The notes beneath the pieces are model-generated. The model saw only the letters and a list, made by a program, of their open reading frames with translations, was not told where the DNA came from and ran no database searches. A stretch of 51,099 nt of DNA from a phage, in the sequence record NC_129764.1. One strand, written 5' to 3'. Shown here piece after piece: positions 1-51,099 of this stretch (position 1 is the first letter of the stretch; each line of letters begins with the position of its first letter). A program made the translations under genes and the position numbers.

Positions 1-530
1 ATTGCATGGTGTGCAACAGTTGGTTGATTTGTTGCTGAGATTGCAATGATTGTGAGAGGGGGGATTTAGTGTTACCCGGTTCGCCTGGTGGTCATCTCCA
101 TTTTTAGCAAAACGTGCTATTCGTCTATGCGGTAGTTGTAATTGTCGTAATAGTTGTATACCATTAGGGGTGTTACAAAATGGCCCGAGAATCGATAGGC
201 CTATAGATAATAAAATATCTATATATAATAATAAGATAGATAATATATATTTATTTATTTATTATATTATATATTGGTATGTAATCGGCGTAATAGGTGC
301 AACCGCATTTTTTGAGGGTGGCATATATTTCGTGATGCATAGTATAAAAAACATACTATTCCGCGCGCATAAATAGATGTTCTTACTTTTATAGAAAAAG
401 TCGGTTGCATCGGTTGCACTGGTTACAAAAATAAAAAATGCAGCTATAGACATTGACGCGCCTGACGTTGTAGCTGTAACATGTTTTTCGAAGTTGAAAG
501 TTACACCCATAGACAACGAGGTATAGACAA
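1..530. promoter_or_regulatory. AT-rich non-coding control region with GTTACA/GTTGCA-type repeats and (TATAGATAATA)-like tracts
   Basis: No convincing ORF; AT tracts 200-290; repeated gttaca/gttgca/tgtaac words; shares GGTGTTACAAAAT (169-181) with the region at 30868-30881. Confidence 0.5.
103..121 (-). promoter_or_regulatory. dyad motif copy (rc reads AATAGCACGTTTTGCTAAA), minus orientation
   Basis: Direct sequence match to the recurrent motif; points toward window start. Confidence 0.5.
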
Positions 531-29558: not shown

Positions 29559-30531
29559 AATACATGTTCGGAAGAACTATCAACGGAGATTGAATTGCTA
29601 TGTTCCTGTTAGGCATCACGAATTGCTGTCGAGAGTAGTTACCAACAACCTTGTTTTTAGCGACTCTTATTTTGTTACCTGCCATTCTGATCCCGTTCAT
29701 CCTTACGTGGTTGTATCCCCCATTGCTTTCAATCAAAGCGCCGCAGTATGATAGCTGAATAAGGCTGTTCCCTATATCCTGATCCCCTGTGCCGATATTG
29801 ATTACGCGGTTGTAAACGAATGGCTTATTTACTGTAGAGAAAGTAACCTGACCTTGCTTGTTGGTCATAGTTATACCGTTACCGCCACGCGGTGGAGTGT
29901 TATTGAATATCACCAAATCCATAGTAACAGAAGCCGTAACGTCATCTCTTCCCCCGTATGATGCATTCCTTACCGTGATGTTTGAACCGTCAAATCCAAC
30001 GCTTACATTAGGATCGTTCCATCTAGCGAAAGGAATGCCGCTTACTGGCAATTTCATGTTTCCATTAACAGTTATTCGATTTGAATATTGGCACGTCATT
30101 AATTTTGCCACGTTTGATATAGCGGTGAAGTCAGTCGAGTTTGCAACAAGTAGACCCTCATTTCTTGTGCCGACTGGTAATATCTCCATGACAGTACCAG
30201 CCCACTGAGGTAGCCCGGTATATGCACTCAATGCATCCTCACCTCTAATTATCACTCCGCTATTGCCATTCCTTGATACCGTCGTCGCATAAAACGGATC
30301 TGGTATTACAAGAGTCTGGTCAAATACCTCAATAACATCAACAGGTTTTGTGAAAACAACAACAACCTGAGATCCTGGCGTCAATGGAGTATTAACAGTC
30401 AACGTTTTATTTGATTGCGCCCTCTGATTAAAGTTAGCGCAGAATGACGGTGCGCGAAGCCCTGCCGTTATTTGCATCGCTGGTCGTCCGTCATTGTAGT
30501 TTACATATATCCCCTCACCCATAATTACCAC
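29557..30531 (-). CDS. hypothetical protein (324 aa), co-transcribed with lipoprotein; possible receptor-binding or exclusion accessory
   Basis: Long minus-strand ORF overlapping the lipoprotein gene end; function unassigned. Confidence 0.5.
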   Translation of the reverse strand: MVIMGEGIYVNYNDGRPAMQITAGLRAPSFCANFNQRAQSNKTLTVNTPLTPGSQVVVVFTKPVDVIEVFDQTLVIPDPFYATTVSRNGNSGVIIRGEDALSAYTGLPQWAGTVMEILPVGTRNEGLLVANSTDFTAISNVAKLMTCQYSNRITVNGNMKLPVSGIPFARWNDPNVSVGFDGSNITVRNASYGGRDDVTASVTMDLVIFNNTPPRGGNGITMTNKQGQVTFSTVNKPFVYNRVINIGTGDQDIGNSLIQLSYCGALIESNGGYNHVRMNGIRMAGNKIRVAKNKVVGNYSRQQFVMPNRNIAIQSPLIVLPNMY

Positions 30532-30755
30532 TCCTTAGTTTTGACTGAGATCTTACCGCTAAAGTTGCCCTGATTGTCGTCTGATGAAAGGCCTTTGAAT
30601 CGCATGTCAACTTCTCCAGCAGGTACTTTCTTACCGTCAACGAATCGCATCATGCAAGATCCGTAAGCGTAAGTAACACAGTCGCCATTCTTAAGATTCT
30701 GAGCGCAACCAGTCAGGATGAACGCAGCGGCGATAATGGTGATTAACTTTTTCAT
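30525..30755 (-). CDS. lipoprotein, Cor/Llp-like superinfection exclusion candidate (76 aa)
   Basis: Signal peptide with lipobox LTGC; small size; location next to tail genes as in FhuA-dependent phages. Confidence 0.55.
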   Translation of the reverse strand: MKKLITIIAAAFILTGCAQNLKNGDCVTYAYGSCMMRFVDGKKVPAGEVDMRFKGLSSDDNQGNFSGKISVKTKEW

Positions 30756-31282
30756 TTGTATGCCCTCGTCGTTAGTGTGTTTGAATTGTATGTCGCATTT
30801 ACTTTTATTGCAATAGTTCGATTACAATTTTTTTCGCGTAACAGGTGTCTATTTTTGTAACTGGAAGTGGTGTTACAAAATCGACCTCATTCGACCGCAG
30901 GTAGATATGATAAAAACTCTATATAATATATATAGATAGATAATATTTAATTTTAGCTTTATATATATAATTATTGCTGTGTAACAGTTGTCTATCATGT
31001 AACAGGTGATTTGATTGATTCGTCAAATTTCTATCATATATGTTCAAAATTTAATCAATCTTGGTTCTATTCATGGATATCTGTGTATTTATAAGAAAAA
31101 GCGGTTACAAGTGTTACACAATATACACCACATAAAATCAGTGTTAATCTATTGATTCCATTGATGCTGGTTGTAACTTGAGCGATATAGACACACGATT
31201 ACACACCAATTACATGTATTCGATTGACTAAACGCTGTTAATGGCTATAATGAATTCATCGTAAACGAAGGAGATAAACGAA
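30756..31282. promoter_or_regulatory. AT-rich divergent control region with GTAACA/GTTACA repeats and TATAGATAATA tracts
   Basis: No ORF; AT tract 30900-30980; repeats gtaacag/gttacaa; GTGGTGTTACAAAAT at 30868-30881 matches 169-181. Confidence 0.55.
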
Positions 31283-32347
31283 ATGTTCCAGGTATTCACA
31301 TCAAACCAGCTTTCTAATGACGAGTATCATAGCAATGAAGGTTGGGCGGCAGAGTATGTAAGCGGATCGAGCCTTGCAGAAATTTATCAGACCTGCCCGG
31401 CTAACTGGCGATTCAAGAAAAACGAGACAACGAAAGCGCTGGAGTTCGGTACTCAGTCTCATACCAACTTCGAGAGTCGCGATCTGTTTACTGCAACTTA
31501 TGCTCGTTGTCCGGCTCCGTCAGAGTTTAAAGATCTCATTACTTCGCAAGCCGCTCTGGCATCGAAATTAAAATCATTCGGCCTGAAAGGTACATCCGGT
31601 AAGCAGTACCCCGATCTCATCAAAATGATGGTTGATTGTGGTGAGGAACTAAACGTTCAATACCTGATTGAACTGATCGCAGAAGCTGAGGCGCGCGCTG
31701 AAGGAAAGAAACTCGTTGACGCTGACAAATACGATGCATGCATGAAAATGAGAGCCATTCTTGAGCAAAACCCGGATCATGAAGCGTGCATCAACAGTGA
31801 AACGGCGCAGCGTGAGATTTCAATCTTCGGTGAGATATCCGGCGTCAAAGTTAAGGTTCGACTCGATCATCTTGACTACAAAGAGAATGTCCCGGGTCGT
31901 GTGCTGACTGGTTATGATGAGAATGGCGATCCGGTTTATGAAGACGTAATTTTCCCGGAAGCGCTGATTATAACTGACTTCAAAACCACGATGAGCGCCA
32001 ACCCGTTAGAGTTCCCGAGACTGGCATACAATCACGGGTATTATCTGAAAATGGCCTTGCAGCATGACCTGCTACGACGCGCAATCCAGGCTGGCGCTTT
32101 TGAGGGTAACTTCCCGGAAGATATCCCGATCGTAGTTCGATTGCTGGCTCAGGAGAAAAAAGAGCCTTACATCGCACTTGCTTACCGTATGACTATGGAG
32201 CAAATCAGGATCGGTCGTAGCCAGTATGTTAGCGTAGTCCACACTTACAAGGCTTGCTCTGAAATGGATGTTTGGCCTGGGTACGCTGGCGACGCAAGCG
32301 AGATTGAACTTGAAACGCCATCATGGGTGCGTTACCAAAATAAGTAA
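31283..32347 (+). CDS. putative recombination exonuclease (PD-(D/E)XK-like, 354 aa)
   Basis: Position upstream of Erf and SSB; D-x-K-like segment ITDFKTT. Confidence 0.5.
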   Translation: MFQVFTSNQLSNDEYHSNEGWAAEYVSGSSLAEIYQTCPANWRFKKNETTKALEFGTQSHTNFESRDLFTATYARCPAPSEFKDLITSQAALASKLKSFGLKGTSGKQYPDLIKMMVDCGEELNVQYLIELIAEAEARAEGKKLVDADKYDACMKMRAILEQNPDHEACINSETAQREISIFGEISGVKVKVRLDHLDYKENVPGRVLTGYDENGDPVYEDVIFPEALIITDFKTTMSANPLEFPRLAYNHGYYLKMALQHDLLRRAIQAGAFEGNFPEDIPIVVRLLAQEKKEPYIALAYRMTMEQIRIGRSQYVSVVHTYKACSEMDVWPGYAGDASEIELETPSWVRYQNK

Positions 32348-33540: not shown

Positions 33541-33575
33541 AGAAAGCCCCGCATTGCGGGGCTTTCTTTTATTCT
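33541..33575. terminator. bidirectional intrinsic terminator
   Basis: aaagccccgcattgcggggcttt stem with flanking T-run. Confidence 0.7.
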
Positions 33576-35695
33576 TCTTTGCAACCTGTTGCGTGTGCTT
33601 CCTCCCACTCGCTTCTTTTTGCCCCGTTTCTTACTTCTCGCTCCATCCTTTCTAATTCGGTGTTGTAAATGCTGTTAGGTGGCATTTCAACACGGATGCT
33701 AACGAAAACATCATTCGGTATGTCGATCGGATCGCCGTTCGAATAACCTTCCTTATCGTTCCTTGCGAACTTCGGCGCACTCTCATGCGTTCGATGGAAT
33801 GTTTTAAGGATTATTGATCCATCGGCGTTTACTTCATAATCAACCCACAATAGCGGCTGCTTGTTTATGTCAACCGGGATTTCGATTCCACCACTAATGC
33901 CACCCCAAGCAAGATCGGAGTTCAATCCTGTGCATCCTTCAATAAGGTACTCGCCAACCCCGATTCGCTGAACGGTGCAGCCCTCAGATTCGTCGTTGGT
34001 TTCGAAAGAATCCCTCTTAACCCTCACGATCGGTGAAGCTCGCTTGATAAATCCATTGCCATCTACGGTTGTGTTTTTAGTTCCCCATAGAGCATTGACT
34101 TGAACCACGCCACTATTGAGGCCGCTATTGTTCGCGCCGATAGAGTAAACGTTAGCATTCCTGTAGTCAACTGAAAGCAATCCGAATGTATCACCTGCAA
34201 GCATGTAGATAGCTGCGTTATGCTGGAAGTTAGCTCCACCTGCAGAAGCCGCACCAGTATTACGCATAACCCTAGAACCTCCAGTATCGCGCATTCCCTT
34301 AATCCAAGCTCCAATATTTGGTTGATTTATATCCTTACCAGCACCTATTACCATAGTCTTATCACTATCTATTATAACCCTTCCGTCATATGCAACAGAG
34401 CTATCATCTCTCAACTGTAGTGCTCTATTAGACGTTCCGTTTTTAAAATAAACATCATTTCCACCAACACCAATATAACCAGATTGATTTGGCCTTCCCT
34501 GATCGGAACGCTTAATTGTAATTCCGTATTCTACACTTGGGGATGCGCTAGTTAGAACCTCCTTCCACGCACCATAATTACCATTATTCATACATCTGAA
34601 CATCATCCTTCCAGAACTTGAGTAAGATCCAGAGAGTTGAAATTTGTAATTATTGCCCTTAGTGCAATTAAATGTTACAACACCCAAAAACTGACCATCA
34701 CCAATACCGAATGGCTTTCCAAAGTTACCCCCTTCACCAACATAGAATCCATTTGCCAGATTAACAGAATTACCCTCAGATAATGAGTTTACAAGTCCAG
34801 CACTTGATTGAAGGCCAAGCCCAAACTTATCTATATCAAGATTTGTTCTTGCAACGCTTTTGTTTGTCAATCCACTAAGATTACCATCCTTCGTTAACAG
34901 GTTGTCAGCGTTAATGCTATTAGCTGCGTCCTTTGCTTCCTGAGCGCTAACCGATGCCGCATCTTTTGCACTAACAGCATCGTCACGAGCCGCCTGTGCG
35001 TCGTTTTTTGCTGAGGTTGCAGTTTGCGCCGCCGCCTGGGCGTTGTTAACGTAACCTGACAGATCTCCTTTGGCGTCATTGATTGCTTTAATGGCTGCTT
35101 TCTCTTCCGTGTCGATGTGCGTAATCGCCGCTGATTCTTTAGAGCCTACATCTGTGATCGCTTGTTCTTTTGCTGCATTGATGCTACCGACAGCCCCGTC
35201 AACAATTTGCTGAACTTGGCCTTTGGTGGCTTTAGCTTCGTCACGTGCTGCATTCGCTGAGTCGCGAGCAAGTTCCGCTTGATTCTGTGCAGATTCAGCG
35301 GCTGATTTGTTCGCCTTAATTTCTTCAACGATGCGGTTAAGGTTATCCATATCCAGACTCGCAATGATATCCATTGCCCCGGCAATCTCAGTCTCTTTGC
35401 TTTGATAGTATCGAAGCGTCTCAGCGACGTTTTGAGCCAATCCGTTAACAGTCAGTGAATCGTTAAGCAAGATCACATACTTACCGTCAGAGGCAGTCTG
35501 ACCGTCGGTAGAGATAGCCTTTAATTCTGTGTCGCTAACGATATCGCTAATCACCGCCAGCTTAATTGGTTGCTCAAGGAACACGATAGTTGCACCTACG
35601 CGAATAAGAGCAAGCTGATCTTTCCATTTTGTATCGGTTCCGTGAACCGTTCCGTCTGCATCCATTGATGCCGTACCGCGTCTGTATAAAGCCAT
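33569..35695 (-). CDS. tail fibre protein (708 aa)
   Basis: Long ORF with Ala/Lys/Asp-rich coiled-coil N-terminal part and Gly/Asn-rich distal region. Confidence 0.65.
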   Translation of the reverse strand: MALYRRGTASMDADGTVHGTDTKWKDQLALIRVGATIVFLEQPIKLAVISDIVSDTELKAISTDGQTASDGKYVILLNDSLTVNGLAQNVAETLRYYQSKETEIAGAMDIIASLDMDNLNRIVEEIKANKSAAESAQNQAELARDSANAARDEAKATKGQVQQIVDGAVGSINAAKEQAITDVGSKESAAITHIDTEEKAAIKAINDAKGDLSGYVNNAQAAAQTATSAKNDAQAARDDAVSAKDAASVSAQEAKDAANSINADNLLTKDGNLSGLTNKSVARTNLDIDKFGLGLQSSAGLVNSLSEGNSVNLANGFYVGEGGNFGKPFGIGDGQFLGVVTFNCTKGNNYKFQLSGSYSSSGRMMFRCMNNGNYGAWKEVLTSASPSVEYGITIKRSDQGRPNQSGYIGVGGNDVYFKNGTSNRALQLRDDSSVAYDGRVIIDSDKTMVIGAGKDINQPNIGAWIKGMRDTGGSRVMRNTGAASAGGANFQHNAAIYMLAGDTFGLLSVDYRNANVYSIGANNSGLNSGVVQVNALWGTKNTTVDGNGFIKRASPIVRVKRDSFETNDESEGCTVQRIGVGEYLIEGCTGLNSDLAWGGISGGIEIPVDINKQPLLWVDYEVNADGSIILKTFHRTHESAPKFARNDKEGYSNGDPIDIPNDVFVSIRVEMPPNSIYNTELERMEREVRNGAKRSEWEEAHATGCKEE

Positions 35696-36788: not shown

Positions 36789-36809
36789 GTTTTAACTAAA
36801 AATGCTATT
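36789..36809 (-). promoter_or_regulatory. dyad motif variant (minus strand AATAGCATTTTTAGTTAAAAC)
   Basis: Sequence match; encodes the C-terminal NSIFS-stop of the upstream gene; followed on minus strand by hairpin acgcgtag/ctacgcgt plus T-run. Confidence 0.55.
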
Positions 36810-37244
36810 GGTCGTTCCGATATCTTCCTTCTTCACAACCCGCATGAATTTCTTGTTCTTGCATCGCTTCTCAAGGCACTTTCCGTTACCATCAAACTTG
36901 AGGTCGAATCTCAGCCATGCTGCGCGGTATCCTTTACACCCCTGTCGGCGGTAAGCGCGATGTGCAGCCTCAGCGCCTTGCCACGAAATCATGTTGCGTT
37001 CTTTCCAGCCTTGCACCGTCTGATTCGTTACTTTTAGTGCCTTTGCGCAGGCCGCAGGGCCACCATAATATTCGATAAGCGCATCAAGTCGTGCTCGCAA
37101 TCCGGCGCGTGTTTCTTCCTTATGAATATAGAACCCGCAGCGCTGTCGTGGCTTTTTGTCTTTACCGCGTCGAGTTCCGTTGTTACCATTGATGTGACGT
37201 TTATCGATTTCACCAGTTGACTCCGCGATGCGTTGAATACTCAT
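36792..37244 (-). CDS. putative DNA-binding protein with Cro/YdaS-like HTH (150 aa)
   Basis: ATG with RBS aggagaattaagATG; segment GGPAACAKALKVTNQTVQGWKERNMISWQGA resembles Cro/YdaS-type HTH. Confidence 0.5.
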   Translation of the reverse strand: MSIQRIAESTGEIDKRHINGNNGTRRGKDKKPRQRCGFYIHKEETRAGLRARLDALIEYYGGPAACAKALKVTNQTVQGWKERNMISWQGAEAAHRAYRRQGCKGYRAAWLRFDLKFDGNGKCLEKRCKNKKFMRVVKKEDIGTTNSIFS

Positions 37245-37256
37245 CTTAATTCTCCT

Positions 37257-37277
37257 ATAGCACTTTTTGCTAAAAAC
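37257..37277 (+). promoter_or_regulatory. dyad motif copy ATAGCACTTTTTGCTAAAAAC
   Basis: Sequence match at the divergent junction between the HTH gene and helicase. Confidence 0.6.
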
Positions 37278-44250: not shown

Positions 44251-44262
44251 GCCTCCATTCTT

Positions 44263-44667: not shown

Positions 44668-45075
44668 TCAAATTCTTCTTTCGTAAGATGGAGCCTTGCG
44701 CACAATTCGACGTTCCGATCTATCAATGTTTCTACGTTCGCCAAACAAATCTTCATCACTCATCTCTCCAATGTGCATCATTTCCCACGTATACCGATTG
44801 TTGTAGCCATCAATACACATCAGCTTCATCATTACCGGGCGCTTAATCTTTCCCTTGCACCAGTAAACTCCATCCTTGCGATCTAAGTAACCCTCAGTCA
44901 CGCAACGAGCGCAAAACTCCTTAGATAGCGCGCTTGTAAATTCACGGCGAGTCATTCCAGCAGCCTTAGCAAATCGCTCACTTTCCTTGTGGGCGTATAT
45001 AAATTTCGCTATGTGCTGTCGAGTGTATTTATCGTAACCTTCGCAGAACCTGAACAGATCTAAAAGAAGAAGCAT
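44668..45075 (-). CDS. hypothetical protein (135 aa)
   Basis: ORF; weak RBS, start uncertain. Confidence 0.45.
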   Translation of the reverse strand: MLLLLDLFRFCEGYDKYTRQHIAKFIYAHKESERFAKAAGMTRREFTSALSKEFCARCVTEGYLDRKDGVYWCKGKIKRPVMMKLMCIDGYNNRYTWEMMHIGEMSDEDLFGERRNIDRSERRIVRKAPSYERRI

Positions 45076-45079
45076 GTTG

Positions 45080-46648
45080 TTAACCCATTAGTCGAGGATT
45101 GATGAAAACAATATCATCAATGCGGCAAGTGTAGTTCATCTCTTCGAGCGTGATCAGTAGGCTATCGATTCGCTCAGATACTTTCTGTTGACCGTTGAAC
45201 GGAGTAACGTTCCGGCACTTTGCAACAATACTATGAATAGGCGCGCGCCCTTTGTTCTTCTTTGCGATCTCAGTGATAACATCAATCAGCTTACGAGATT
45301 CAGCCTCATCACCTGCATACCCGGCAGCGCTGGCAGATGACAGGTAAGTCCTGGAAAGCTCATTGAAAATCATGATCGCTTCTTGCATTGTTTCAAGGTC
45401 AATCTCACGGTTGGATCGGTTCGGTGATTCGCCTTCCCAATTCTTGATCGTGTGTAGAACTGAAGCAATACGCAAAGCGTGCTTATCGAACTTGCCGAGA
45501 TGACCGCGAAGCATTGAGTGAGAGTATTTTCCCCCGGCGGCGAAATCAGGCTCCATCGCCTGGCGTGCAAGGTTTAATTCACGCATAGCATTACGGCTCA
45601 CAGAGAGAACAACGTTGTCCTCCTTCATGATGTTGTGCACGAGTCTGTAATATTTGCTAACCAGTCCGCGATCGACTTCTTTATACAGTGCATCACCATT
45701 TTCATCACAAAGAATACGAGTACCTAAAAGCGGTTCCTCTCGAACCAGGAGGAAACGCTCAGATACACCGATACCGCGCTGGCCTGCGTCCATGATACCC
45801 TTGATTGTTTCATCCTGAGCAATTACGCAGATTGAACCGACCGGGCATAGAGATAAGTTGTTATCCTGGTTGGAACGAGCGACCTCCATATGGTTTTTAT
45901 CCCACGCCTTAAGGATAAGCTCACTGTTAGATTTCTTATCTGAACCGCCATACGTAAGCCCGAGCAATGTATTGATTGCCGTTGCCTCGTCAGATATTAC
46001 GGAAAAGTGACCTTGCACTGCCGCCACTTTCGCAAGACCTTCAGGTGTAGGATCTGATACCGCGAAAACAATATCAGCCATCTTCTTGATCTTCTCTTCC
46101 AGTTTTTCTTTGTCCTCGTACAGTGCCGCCGTAGTGTTGCCTTTAGGATCATTCTTGATTTCCTTCTCAACCTGGCGTAGCTGACTGGTTAAACGGATAC
46201 GTTCCTTTTTGCGCTCTTCATTCAGTCGCTGAATCTCCGCACGCATAGGTGTAATCGCCGCTGAGTTAATCGCGGACTTACCTGTTGATGGTGGCTGGCT
46301 GATTACCATGTAAAGCGCGGTCGGCTGTTCCTCTCCGTGATATTGCACCCAAAACTTCCCTAGCATCGCGGCTGAGATGCAACCGATAAAATGAGCATAC
46401 GCGGATGAAACCGGGAACTGGACTGATTCAGCTTTTGCTTTTGCATATTCGAATACCAGGTTATCGCCACCTAACGAAATCAGAGGGAACTTATCGTTGC
46501 CGCTATTAATATCGATCGGGTCTTGCCAAAACGAAACGGAATCACCGTAGCTGTTTTCACGAATTGCGATCGCCACCGGGTTAACTCCAGTGCTATTGGC
46601 GATCTCAATAATCTGTTGGTAATTCAGTTTTGGCTTAATGTTAAACAT
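45080..46648 (-). CDS. putative P-loop NTPase (522 aa)
   Basis: ATG with RBS aaggagtttattgtgATG; Walker A-like PPSTGKS; central coiled-coil. Confidence 0.55.
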   Translation of the reverse strand: MFNIKPKLNYQQIIEIANSTGVNPVAIAIRENSYGDSVSFWQDPIDINSGNDKFPLISLGGDNLVFEYAKAKAESVQFPVSSAYAHFIGCISAAMLGKFWVQYHGEEQPTALYMVISQPPSTGKSAINSAAITPMRAEIQRLNEERKKERIRLTSQLRQVEKEIKNDPKGNTTAALYEDKEKLEEKIKKMADIVFAVSDPTPEGLAKVAAVQGHFSVISDEATAINTLLGLTYGGSDKKSNSELILKAWDKNHMEVARSNQDNNLSLCPVGSICVIAQDETIKGIMDAGQRGIGVSERFLLVREEPLLGTRILCDENGDALYKEVDRGLVSKYYRLVHNIMKEDNVVLSVSRNAMRELNLARQAMEPDFAAGGKYSHSMLRGHLGKFDKHALRIASVLHTIKNWEGESPNRSNREIDLETMQEAIMIFNELSRTYLSSASAAGYAGDEAESRKLIDVITEIAKKNKGRAPIHSIVAKCRNVTPFNGQQKVSERIDSLLITLEEMNYTCRIDDIVFINPRLMG

Positions 46649-46702
46649 CACAATAAACTCCTTAGTTGACGGTGTGAATGATACACCGCCAATGTTACAC
46701 GC

Positions 46703-46722
46703 GTTTTGCAAAAAGTGCTATT
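46703..46722 (-). promoter_or_regulatory. dyad motif variant (minus strand AATAGCACTTTTTGCAAAAC)
   Basis: Sequence match about 55 nt upstream of the P-loop gene. Confidence 0.55.
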
Positions 46723-49922: not shown

Positions 49923-49943
49923 GTTTTAACAAAAAGTGCTATT
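49923..49943 (-). promoter_or_regulatory. dyad motif copy (minus strand AATAGCACTTTTTGTTAAAAC)
   Basis: Sequence match; downstream hairpin and leader catcgaaacgag. Confidence 0.65.
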
Positions 49944-50938: not shown

Positions 50939-51006
50939 GTCGATTGCTCCTGATTGGTTGATGTGATGAATCATACCTAGTCGACATGGATGAGTCGTTA
51001 GCAAAA

Positions 51007-51025
51007 AATGCTATTCCAATAATTG
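51007..51025 (-). promoter_or_regulatory. dyad motif variant (minus strand AATAGCATTTTTTGCTAAC)
   Basis: Sequence match about 70 nt upstream of the 50938 start. Confidence 0.55.
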
Positions 51026-51099
51026 CTCATTATTCCATCAATACTGGAATAGGTGTAATAATCTTGATTGTTATTGATTACGAATGATGAAACGTGATT

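What the first reader, a model, noticed from the sequence alone, without database searches (positions are those of the whole stretch)
30756..31282. AT-rich divergent intergenic region with GTAACA-type iterons: candidate origin or early control region
A 527-bp non-coding stretch separates the minus-strand lipoprotein operon from the plus-strand recombination genes. It contains an AT tract (30900-30980: tatataatatatatagatagataatat), repeated gtaacag/gttacaa/tgtaac words in both orientations, and a 15-mer GTGGTGTTACAAAAT (30868-30881) that recurs at 169-181 in the window's first non-coding region. Iteron-like repeats next to an AT-rich unwinding tract, beside the replication and recombination genes, fit a replication origin. 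Strong divergent early promoters are an equally plausible reading.
Basis: partly seen in the sequence, partly recalled or inferred. Interest (0 to 1): 0.6.

Follow-up and report, generated by a model that had tools for sequence, protein, structure and literature searches.

The report
Twin origin-like control regions in T1-type phage
The non-coding stretch upstream of the recE recombination genes of this T1-like phage is one of two co-evolving copies of a conserved protein-assembly site (an easily melted AT tract flanked by short repeated words, plus an IHF site and a promoter); this makes it the first concrete, testable candidate for the unknown replication origin of the T1 phage family, though a transcription-control role is not excluded.

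Summary
The window is a complete T1-like (Tunavirus) genome. Positions 30756-31282 are truly non-coding. GTAAC words are clustered there (8 in 336 bp, about 0.8 expected). The AT tract (30908-30977) is the second least stable duplex segment of the genome. The least stable one lies in the window's first non-coding region, which shares a colinear ~125-bp core with this region. This twin layout recurs in T1, SRT8 and TLS. In 45 of 46 related loci the AT tract sits 328-387 nt upstream of recE. The two copies within a genome resemble each other more than the same copy does between genera. The repeated word differs by lineage (GTAACA, GTAATC, GAACA, TAAACA and others). A cross-genus alignment shows word triplets phased at 9-10 bp, an IHF consensus (31145-31157) and a sigma-70 recE promoter (31224-31251). 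No tool could show function. GC skew only follows gene orientation. My best reading is an iteron + unwinding-element replication origin or organiser, paired like SPP1 oriL/oriR (about 45%). The main rival is a transcription-control hub (about 30%). A winged-helix protein next to the DUF3987 helicase is the best candidate binder.

The parts
30525..30755 (-). Flanking gene: Cor-type lipoprotein (superinfection exclusion), first gene of the leftward two-gene unit.
   Evidence: PHROG 4281/1119. T1 annotation calls it Cor.
30785..30813 (-). Weak sigma-70-like match TTGCAA-17-TACAAT, the proximal candidate promoter for cor.
   Evidence: 9 of 12 matches, which is the chance level. The segment 30756-30830 has 21% variable columns. 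Its role is inferred.
30838..30881 (+). Left word module: GTAACAGGTG (30838-47), TGTCTAT (30846-52), and the inverted pair TTTTGTAAC (30853-61) / GTTACAAAA (30872-80) with a 10-nt spacer.
   Evidence: In 15 Tunavirus sequences the words are invariant while the spacer CTGGAAGT varies. Other genera carry a different word at the homologous position.
30865..30984 (+). Core element, paralogous to and colinear with window 165-284 in the same orientation.
   Evidence: Local alignment score 78 against shuffles 22-23 +/- 3. Within-genome A-B scores are 78/66/77/63 in the window, T1, SRT8 and TLS. Between-genus A-A scores are 44/36/26.
30908..30977 (.). AT tract (87% A+T), a candidate DNA-unwinding element. 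It contains TATAAT at 30922-27 and 30966-71.
   Evidence: Second least stable 60-mer of the genome, z = 5.5. It is the least stable site of each of the 46 recE loci, and lies at -328..-387 from the recE ATG in 45 of them. T1, SRT8 and TLS each show the same two standout minima.
30907..31060 (.). Hyper-conserved non-coding block: the AT tract, the right module and about 50 further nt.
   Evidence: 10% variable columns across 15 Tunavirus sequences, against 16% in recE coding sequence and 33-41% in the flanking spacers.
30978..31008 (+). Right word module: TGTGTAACAGTTG / TGTCTATCA / TGTAACAGGTG, with TGT phased at 9-11 bp. It includes two direct GTAACAG(G/T)TG 10-mers at 30981-90 and 30999-31008.
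   Evidence: Homologous triplets in other genera carry other words.
31103..31129 (+). Distal word triplet with a 9-bp period: GGTTACAAG TGTTACACA ATATACACC.
   Evidence: Counterparts are GTGAACAATG GAACACAAA AACAACAAT in TLS and GATTACAAGC TTACATCT TATACATGC in SRT8. Region B has GGTTGCATC GGTTGCACT GGTTACAAA at 403-429.
31120..31147 (-). Leftward sigma-70-like match TTAACA-16-TATATT. If active, it would transcribe through the words and the AT tract toward cor.
   Evidence: 10 of 12. It is annotated as a promoter in SA12KD. The sequence is rather variable within the genus, so its function is doubtful.
31145..31157 (-). IHF consensus site AATCAATAGATTA (WATCAANNNNTTR).
   Evidence: One of only 3 perfect matches in the genome. 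A perfect consensus lies at -138/-142 from the recE ATG in 21 of 46 loci (24 within -260..-100), against 0.029 expected per locus. In Tunavirus the four N positions vary while the consensus bases stay fixed. The orientation flips between subfamilies.
31171..31214 (+). Proximal word module TTGTAACTTG, TATAGACAC, GATTACA, AATTACA, ending 10 nt before the -35 hexamer.
   Evidence: The words are invariant within the genus.
31224..31251 (+). P_recE, a sigma-70 promoter TTGACT-16-TATAAT. The RBS GGAG is at 31270-73 and the recE ATG at 31283.
   Evidence: 11 of 12. TTGACN-N15-18-TANNNT is found at -58..-73 in 43 of 46 loci, down to about 60% RecE identity. It is annotated in T1 and SA12KD.
1..530 (.). 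Region B, the second copy (together with 50940-51099 across the circular junction). The core is 165-284 and the AT tract about 190-284. GYAAYAGKTG occurs at 13, 147 and 290. The region lies between the two divergent early arms.
   Evidence: (junction spanned in relatives). At least three alleles with different words and a different first gene exist within Tunavirus.
44668..45075 (-). Candidate trans factor: a 135-aa winged-helix protein encoded directly downstream of the helicase gene.
45080..46711 (-). Candidate trans factor: a 543-aa DUF3987 helicase, a predicted replicative SF6/MCM-like helicase with a C-terminal winged helix.
   Evidence: Pfam PF13148, E = 3e-42, and PHROG 2373. The family's properties come from PMC4889955 and PMC11724360. 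Its C-terminal 90 aa diverge faster than the core.

Best explanation
Region A (30830-31220) is one of two paralogous cis-acting nucleoprotein assembly sites of the phage. It most likely acts as a replication origin or replisome-organiser element.

Proposed mechanism, all steps inferred:
1. A phage-encoded sequence-specific protein binds the lineage-specific words. These are arranged as triplets phased at 9-10 bp on both sides of the AT tract. The best candidate is the 135-aa winged-helix protein encoded next to the DUF3987 helicase; the helicase's own C-terminal winged helix is another.
2. Host IHF bends the DNA at 31145-57.
3. The AT tract, the easiest place in the genome to melt apart from its twin at 215-274, opens.
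4. The MCM-like DUF3987 helicase and the phage primase are loaded, and host Pol III is recruited.

The two copies (A upstream of recE-erf-ssb, B between the early arms) would work like SPP1 oriL/oriR. Either both fire, or one serves as a bound barrier that helps switch to recombination-dependent concatemer synthesis. The right-hand 60 bp is a separate and well-supported feature, the sigma-70 promoter of recE. The word array reaches this promoter, so occupancy of the element probably also tunes recE-operon transcription.

Shown here: the anatomy, the statistics, the conservation, the paralogy and the co-evolution. Inferred: protein binding, melting and replication initiation.
For: 1. The words are clustered far above chance.
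2. The two AT tracts are the two least stable duplex segments in this genome (z = 6.3 and 5.5, next 3.3). The same holds in T1, SRT8 and TLS.
3. The position is fixed at -328..-387 from recE in 45 of 46 loci.
4. The region is non-coding yet more conserved than recE coding sequence. The words are invariant and the spacers variable.
5. A and B share a colinear core and co-evolve within each genome.
6. Homologous word positions carry lineage-specific words across genera. This is the pattern expected for an initiator and its iterons.
7. A conserved IHF consensus is present.
8. The element persists where no divergent promoter is needed.
9. The core holds only chance-level sigma-70 matches.
10. The phage encodes a DUF3987 replicative-type helicase with a winged helix and an adjacent winged-helix protein. 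That protein's recognition helix follows the word type in the one informative contrast: T1 = IME347, SRT8 different.
11. A paired-origin precedent exists in SPP1.
12. No origin is known for this family.
Against: 1. There is no functional data of any kind.
2. GC skew is fully explained by gene orientation.
3. The element is not next to a helicase or initiator gene. The DUF3987 gene is about 14 kb from A and about 4.3 kb from B.
4. The words are short (6-10 nt) and heterogeneous.
5. In some lineages A and B favour different words, for example ATAACA x12 in B against AGAACA in A.
6. Region B has at least three alleles within Tunavirus, although the replication proteins are about 99% identical. 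So not all words can be sites for one conserved initiator.
7. The proximal words abut the -35 of P_recE, and an IHF site about 100 nt upstream of a promoter is also classic promoter architecture.
8. The AT tract is conserved in sequence (CTATATAAT...), not only in composition. This could mean recognition as a promoter element.
9. The covariation with the winged-helix protein rests on a single independent contrast.
Confidence: 0.45

Rival explanations
1. Transcription-control hub. The words are operator or activator sites for a phage regulator that times early and middle expression at two places: the recE operon with cor, and the two divergent early arms. IHF loops the upstream sites onto the promoter. 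The AT tract serves as curved or RNAP-attracting DNA, or as a weak promoter. The twin regions would be analogous to lambda OL/OR or the Mu O1-O3/IHF region.
For: P_recE is conserved. The proximal word triplet ends 10 nt from its -35, and the IHF site lies about 100 nt upstream. Both copies keep the same orientation, about 250-350 nt upstream of a rightward operon. TATAAT occurs in the tract in many lineages. There is an inverted pair with conserved arms and a free spacer. Word sets in region B change together with the adjacent early genes. The phage encodes a Cro/C2-like HTH protein and winged-helix proteins.
Against: The most conserved part, the AT tract and right module, lies 250-370 nt from the recE start. 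It contains only chance-level sigma-70 matches. The element is retained upstream of recE in TLS-type phages that lack a divergent gene. The HTH regulator's helix-turn-helix is identical in SRT8 and IME347, which use different words. An operator model gives no reason for the two sites to be the two least stable duplexes of the genome in three genera.
Confidence: 0.3
2. A different DNA-level cis element, used for packaging, recombination or genome organisation. Examples are a terminase or accessory-protein assembly site, a recombination hotspot feeding RecE/Erf-dependent replication, or a nucleoid-protein (IHF/H-NS/Fis) structuring site.
For: Region B lies about 200 nt from coordinate 1. In T1 and TLS records coordinate 1 appears to be set at the pac end (inference). 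Region A sits directly upstream of recE-erf-ssb in all 46 loci. An IHF consensus is present. SPP1 pac and lambda cos also combine repeats, bent DNA and IHF (general knowledge).
Against: Headful phages use a single pac site, so a second copy 30 kb away has no obvious packaging role. The lineage-specific words point to a sequence-specific phage protein rather than general nucleoid proteins. No perfect IHF consensus was found in region B of this window.
Confidence: 0.12
3. A hidden gene: a small protein (the 46-aa ORF annotated in T1 as CPTT1_049) or a structured small RNA encoded in the conserved block.
For: The 46-aa ORF stays open in 15 Tunavirus sequences and is annotated in T1 and ULIM2. RNA folding z-scores are slightly negative, -2.4 and -1.95.
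Against: The substitutions show no third-position bias, [9,17,12] against [1,1,17] in recE. The ORF starts with TTG and its changes are largely non-synonymous. The minus-strand ORFs are disrupted in relatives. Rfam gave no hit. No terminator or good promoter frames an RNA. The modest fold scores come from the inverted words.
Confidence: 0.03

Closest known systems
Bacillus phage SPP1 oriL / oriR (bound by gp38; PMC6316719)
   Same: A pac-type siphovirus with two similarly organised sites in one genome. Each site has direct repeats plus an AT-rich unwinding element, and both are bound by one phage protein. The second site is proposed to stall forks and trigger a switch to concatemer synthesis that depends on an exonuclease, an annealase, SSB and a resolvase. 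T1-like phages encode the same recombination set, and region A lies directly upstream of it.
   Different: SPP1 uses a DnaB-type helicase with a loader, and oriL lies inside the initiator gene. Here the helicase is DUF3987/MCM-like and neither copy lies in a replication gene. The words are shorter and lineage-variable. An IHF consensus and a promoter are integrated in the element. Function is untested.
Satellite phage P4 ori + crr (type I iterons TGTTCACC bound by the winged-helix C-terminus of the alpha primase-helicase; from my own knowledge, not checked in a paper here)
   Same: Short octamer-type words occur at two separated cis sites. They are recognised by a winged helix attached to the replicative helicase. 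TLS-type relatives even use TGTTCAC(A/G)A words at the homologous position.
   Different: The helicase family differs. P4 crr has no prominent unwinding tract. The resemblance of the word is probably coincidental. No binding data exist here.
Iteron origins with IHF (lambda ori, pSC101, R6K gamma, SaPI ori; general knowledge)
   Same: Clustered repeats flank or adjoin an AT-rich tract. Specificity co-evolves with the element's own initiator. A host bending-protein site is present.
   Different: Classical iterons are 17-22 bp and uniform, and usually sit in or beside the initiator gene. DnaA boxes are common there, whereas this genome has none (0 against about 5 expected).
Paired operator regions of temperate phages (lambda OL/OR; Mu O1-O3 with IHF; general knowledge)
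   Same: Two regions carry the same lineage-specific sites and control divergent early transcription. An IHF bend lies between site clusters, and some sites abut a promoter.
   Different: The phage is virulent. The most conserved part is an AT tract far from any good promoter. The Cro/C2-like protein does not track the word change.
21-nt intergenic repeat of T1-like phages, aaATAGCACnnnTTGnTAAAA (PMC11447400)
   Same: It is the only repeat family so far described for these genomes, and it is also intergenic.
   Different: It is a different element. The window has 28 copies (2.3 expected), mostly co-directional with genes. None lies in region A and two flank region B.

Membership tests
Iteron-type replication origin | Cluster of repeated short protein-binding words | tested here: met
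   GTAAC occurs 8 times in 336 bp. GTTACA occurs 7 times here against 13 elsewhere (p = 2e-10). GYAAYAGKTG has 6 of its 8 copies in the two regions. The words are conserved and the spacers variable.
Iteron-type replication origin | Adjacent AT-rich unwinding element of low duplex stability | tested here: met
   The two lowest-stability 60-mers of the genome are 215-274 and 30915-30974. The same is seen in T1, SRT8 and TLS and in the 46 recE loci.
Iteron-type replication origin | Uniform iterons of about 17-22 bp in helical phase | tested here: inconclusive
   The words are 6-10 nt, of several sub-types and in both orientations. They do form triplets phased at 9-10 bp at conserved positions.
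Iteron-type replication origin | Location within or beside the initiator or helicase gene | tested here: not met
   The neighbours are cor and recE-erf-ssb. The DUF3987 helicase gene (45080-46711) is about 14 kb from A and about 4.3 kb from B.
Iteron-type replication origin | Word specificity co-varies with a cognate DNA-binding protein | tested here: inconclusive
   The words are lineage-specific. The recognition helix of the 135-aa winged-helix protein, and more weakly the helicase C-terminus, follow the T1 = IME347 / SRT8-different pattern. This is only one independent contrast. Elsewhere phylogeny confounds the comparison.
Iteron-type replication origin | Supports initiation in vivo (copy-number peak, autonomous or phage-dependent plasmid replication) | not testable with these tools
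   No experimental data were found in the literature. GC skew is confounded by transcription direction.
SPP1-like paired origins | Two similarly organised repeat + AT-rich elements in one genome | tested here: met
   A colinear core is shared by A and B in four genomes, with scores of 63-78 against a null of 20-24.
Sigma-70 promoter / operator control region | Conserved -35/-10 promoter for the downstream operon | tested here: met
   TTGACT-16-TATAAT lies at 31224-51 and is conserved in 43 of 46 loci.
Sigma-70 promoter / operator control region | Regulator sites overlapping or adjoining the promoter | tested here: inconclusive
   The proximal words end at 31214, 10 nt before the -35, and do not overlap the hexamers. 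The bulk of the words and the AT tract lie 100-390 nt upstream.
Sigma-70 promoter / operator control region | Divergent strong promoters inside the AT/word core | tested here: not met
   Only 9-10 of 12 matches were found, at a frequency equal to shuffled sequence: 6 found against 4.0 +/- 2.3, and 3 against 2.9. The core is retained in TLS without a divergent gene.
DnaA-dependent origin (oriC-like) | DnaA boxes TTWTNCACA | tested here: not met
   No matches in the whole genome, against about 5 expected.
Known RNA family | Match to an Rfam covariance model | tested here: not met
   No hit at E <= 1.
T1/TLS 21-nt intergenic repeat | ATAGCACnnnTTGnTAAAA | tested here: not met
   Of the 28 copies in the genome, none lies in 30756-31282.

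The most novel reading that the evidence does not exclude
Drexlerviridae (T1-like phages) carry a pair of co-evolving origin or organiser elements. A small winged-helix protein encoded beside the MCM-like DUF3987 helicase reads them. If so, this would be the first origin-recognition system defined for DUF3987-helicase phages. In this reading the recE-proximal copy acts as a programmed, IHF-shaped protein barrier or secondary origin. It would couple initiation to the RecE/Erf/SSB-driven switch to concatemer replication and, at the same time, gate transcription of those genes.
Probability: 0.15. Interest if true: 0.75.

Novelty: new member of a known kind. Interest (0 to 1): 0.55.

Why it matters
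T1 is one of the seven classical T phages, and T1-like phages are notorious contaminants of laboratories and fermentations. Their replication origin and early regulatory logic are nevertheless unknown. Recent re-annotations state that no origin-like repeats could be found (PMC11447400, PMC7718038).

This analysis points to two precise elements of about 450 bp, with defined sub-sites and candidate binding proteins. That turns the question into a few direct experiments.

If confirmed, it would also show how an MCM-like DUF3987 helicase, a family widespread in phages and mobile elements, is targeted to DNA. It would further supply parts for T1-based vectors and targets for anti-contamination strategies.

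Tried and rejected
GC skew. Cumulative and block-wise skew follows the coding strand at every strand switch. The minimum is at position 1 and the maximum at 44251, and region A gives only a notch. The test is uninformative, not refuting.

Rfam search. No hit.

RNA folding of both strands. The z-scores are only -2.4 and -1.95.

Small-ORF coding test. Negative.

DnaA boxes. None in the genome.

Cro/C2-like regulator (36792-37247, minus strand) as the word binder. Rejected, because its HTH is identical in SRT8 and IME347 although their words differ.

138-aa protein upstream of the helicase. Its N-terminal half tracks the word type. However, the model (pLDDT 92) is a tandem small beta-barrel closest to Bas11 Gp54, a CapRel trigger of unknown function. 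There is no sign of DNA binding, so the covariation may reflect an arms race.

Sequence searches of the helicase and the 138-aa protein against PDB. Nothing useful.

Search for the helicase in plasmids, hoping for a replicon context. The only hit was one 49.6-kb Paraclostridium 'plasmid' that is probably a phage.

Literature searches for T1 origin mapping or transcriptomes. Nothing relevant.

The 13-mer recurrence as evidence on its own. Rejected, because repeated 13-mers are common in this genome.

Simple 'one word shared by A and B' model. Rejected in part, because some lineages favour different words in A and B.

Full report
Identity and context. The window is a complete, circularly closed genome of a T1-like phage (Tunavirus, Drexlerviridae). 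In this region it is 98-99.6% identical to phage vB_EcoS_SA12KD and about 91% identical to T1. Relatives read straight across the window's ends. The finding lies between the leftward cor lipoprotein gene (30525-30755) and the rightward recE-erf-ssb genes.

The stretch is non-coding by evolutionary criteria. The 46-aa ORF that T1's record annotates here shows no third-codon-position bias, [9,17,12] against [1,1,17] for recE. Other small ORFs are broken in relatives. Rfam finds nothing. GTAAC-type words are strongly clustered: 8 in 336 bp, and GTTACA occurs 7 times here against 13 in the rest of the genome. The genome-wide count is ordinary, so the signal is clustering. A longer 10-mer, GYAAYAGKTG, occurs 8 times (0.47 expected). 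Six of these copies are in this region and in the window's first non-coding region, all on the + strand. The AT tract (30908-30977, 87% A+T) is the second least stable 60-bp duplex of the genome (z = 5.5). The least stable is at 215-274 (z = 6.3) and the third reaches only 3.3. Alone it means little, because 171 13-mers are repeated in this genome.

A second copy. The 13-mer is the tip of a colinear ~125-bp homology between 30865-30984 and 165-284, in the same orientation. It scores 78 against 22-23 +/- 3 for shuffles. Further shared pieces follow, for example TTATA(A)GAAAAAG-GGTT(A/G)CA repeats. Region B (50940-51099 plus 1-530) is the gap between the two divergent early gene arms.

Comparative anatomy. 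RecE homologues brought in 46 loci spanning several subfamilies. In each locus the least stable 60-mer of the 7-kb stretch lies upstream of recE, and in 45 of the 46 it sits 328-387 nt from the recE start. T1, SRT8 and TLS each have exactly two standout minima, at the A and B positions. Within Tunavirus the region is about 90% conserved. The words are invariant and the spacers between them variable. The block 30907-31060 has fewer variable columns (10%) than recE coding sequence (16%).

Across genera the whole ~450 bp can be aligned. The order is a left word module, the AT tract, a right module, a distal triplet, an IHF consensus, a proximal triplet and the promoter. Words sit at homologous positions, mostly as triplets phased at 9-10 bp. 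Their identity is lineage-specific: GTAACA in T1, GTAATC/ATTACA in SRT8, GAACA in TLS, and TAAACA, GAAACA and ATAACA elsewhere.

The IHF consensus WATCAANNNNTTR is perfect in 24 of 46 loci within -260..-100 of the recE start, 21 of them at exactly -138/-142 (0.029 expected per locus). In Tunavirus its four free positions vary while the consensus bases stay fixed. The recE promoter TTGACT-16-TATAAT is conserved in 43 of 46 loci.

In each of four genomes, core A is more similar to core B of the same genome (78, 66, 77, 63) than to core A of another genus (44, 36, 26). The two copies therefore co-evolve. This is expected if one lineage-specific factor reads both, or if they are homogenised by gene conversion.

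What it is not. It is not just a pair of divergent promoters. The core carries only chance-level sigma-70 matches and lies about 250 nt from P_recE. It is also kept in TLS-type phages, where the upstream gene (tail protein J) is co-directional. It is not the 21-nt ATAGCAC repeat described for T1-like phages, which has 28 copies in the window and none here. It is not a DnaA-type origin. GC skew cannot decide anything, since it changes sign at each strand switch.

Candidate trans factors. The phage has a DnaG-like primase, an SF2 helicase and a DUF3987 protein. DUF3987 proteins are regarded as MCM-related replicative helicases with a C-terminal winged helix, and one has been shown to unwind DNA. 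Two small genes flank the DUF3987 gene.

- The upstream 138-aa protein models as tandem beta-barrels resembling Bas11 Gp54, with no DNA-binding hint.
- The downstream 135-aa protein models as a winged helix. Its recognition helix has invariant scaffold residues and variable positions 45, 47, 49 and 50.

SRT8 and IME347 are sister lineages. Their helicase cores are 89% identical, against 83% for each to T1. IME347 shares GTAAC words and the helix FTSALSKEF with T1, while SRT8 has GTAAT words and FVSLMSKEF. The helicase C-terminal 90 residues show a weaker version of the same pattern. The Cro/C2-like regulator does not follow it. This is one contrast only, so it is suggestive and no more.

Interpretation. 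The anatomy matches origin-type nucleoprotein sites: phased lineage-specific words on both sides of the genome's most meltable DNA, a host bending site, twin co-evolving copies, and a phage with its own helicase and primase but no polymerase. The nearest precedent is SPP1. Its oriL and oriR share repeats plus an AT-rich unwinding element, and both bind gp38. The second site is thought to stall forks and trigger recombination-dependent concatemer synthesis. Here copy A sits directly upstream of the analogous exonuclease-annealase-SSB genes. I put this reading at about 45%.

The main rival (about 30%) is a transcription-control hub. In its favour, the proximal words abut P_recE and the IHF site is at a classic upstream position. 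Both copies lie upstream of rightward operons. Region B's word sets change together with the adjacent early genes, while the replication proteins stay about 99% identical. The two roles are not exclusive. Packaging, recombination or structural roles (about 12%) and a hidden gene (about 3%) are less likely.

Novelty. Recent papers on this family report that no origin or origin-like repeats could be found, and I found no description of the twin elements. The element belongs to a known kind, but it supplies the first defined candidate for the T1 family's origin.

Noticed in passing
window, 28 sites (e.g. 102-120 -, 2085-2103 +, 37257-37275 +, 49924-49942 -): The 21-nt element ATAGCACnnnTTGnTAAAA, described for TLS and T1, occurs 28 times with up to 3 mismatches (2.3 expected). 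Most copies are intergenic in the early arms and co-directional with the genes. None lies in region A. Its function is unknown; it may be a phage-specific promoter or regulatory signal.
   Followed up: partly
whole window: The DnaA-box consensus TTWTNCACA is completely absent on both strands, against about 5 expected (sd 2.7). This may be avoidance of host DnaA binding.
   Followed up: no
window 1-530 and loci L054, L055, L059, L062, L065: Region B exists in at least three alleles within the genus Tunavirus. The left part and the AT tract are kept. The flanking words differ (GGTTGCA x3, GATTAACA x3, TAGACA/GTGACA) and so does the first rightward gene, so this is a mosaic junction at the AT tract.
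   Followed up: partly
[not shown]
   Followed up: partly
window 33569-35695 (-): A 708-aa tail-fibre gene sits on the minus strand between ssb and the primase gene. It is thus inside the replication/recombination block and away from the main tail module.
   Followed up: no
window 50940-51099 / 1-120: The window, T1 and TLS records all start at the same place inside region B, about 200 nt left of the AT tract. TLS coordinate 1 coincides with an AGATTT motif that its authors propose as pac. Region B may therefore also hold the packaging start.
   Followed up: partly
PLSDB record CP124687.1 (Paraclostridium bifermentans, 49,647 bp): This was the only 'plasmid' with a DUF3987 homologue of the phage helicase (47.5% identity). 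It has the size of a Drexlerviridae-like genome and may be a phage or phage-plasmid rather than a plasmid.
   Followed up: no
window 30978-30991 and 31107-31120: A 14-nt inverted repeat (93% complementary) pairs the first right-hand word with the distal triplet, 115 nt apart. The second arm is variable within the genus, so the repeat is probably incidental.
   Followed up: partly
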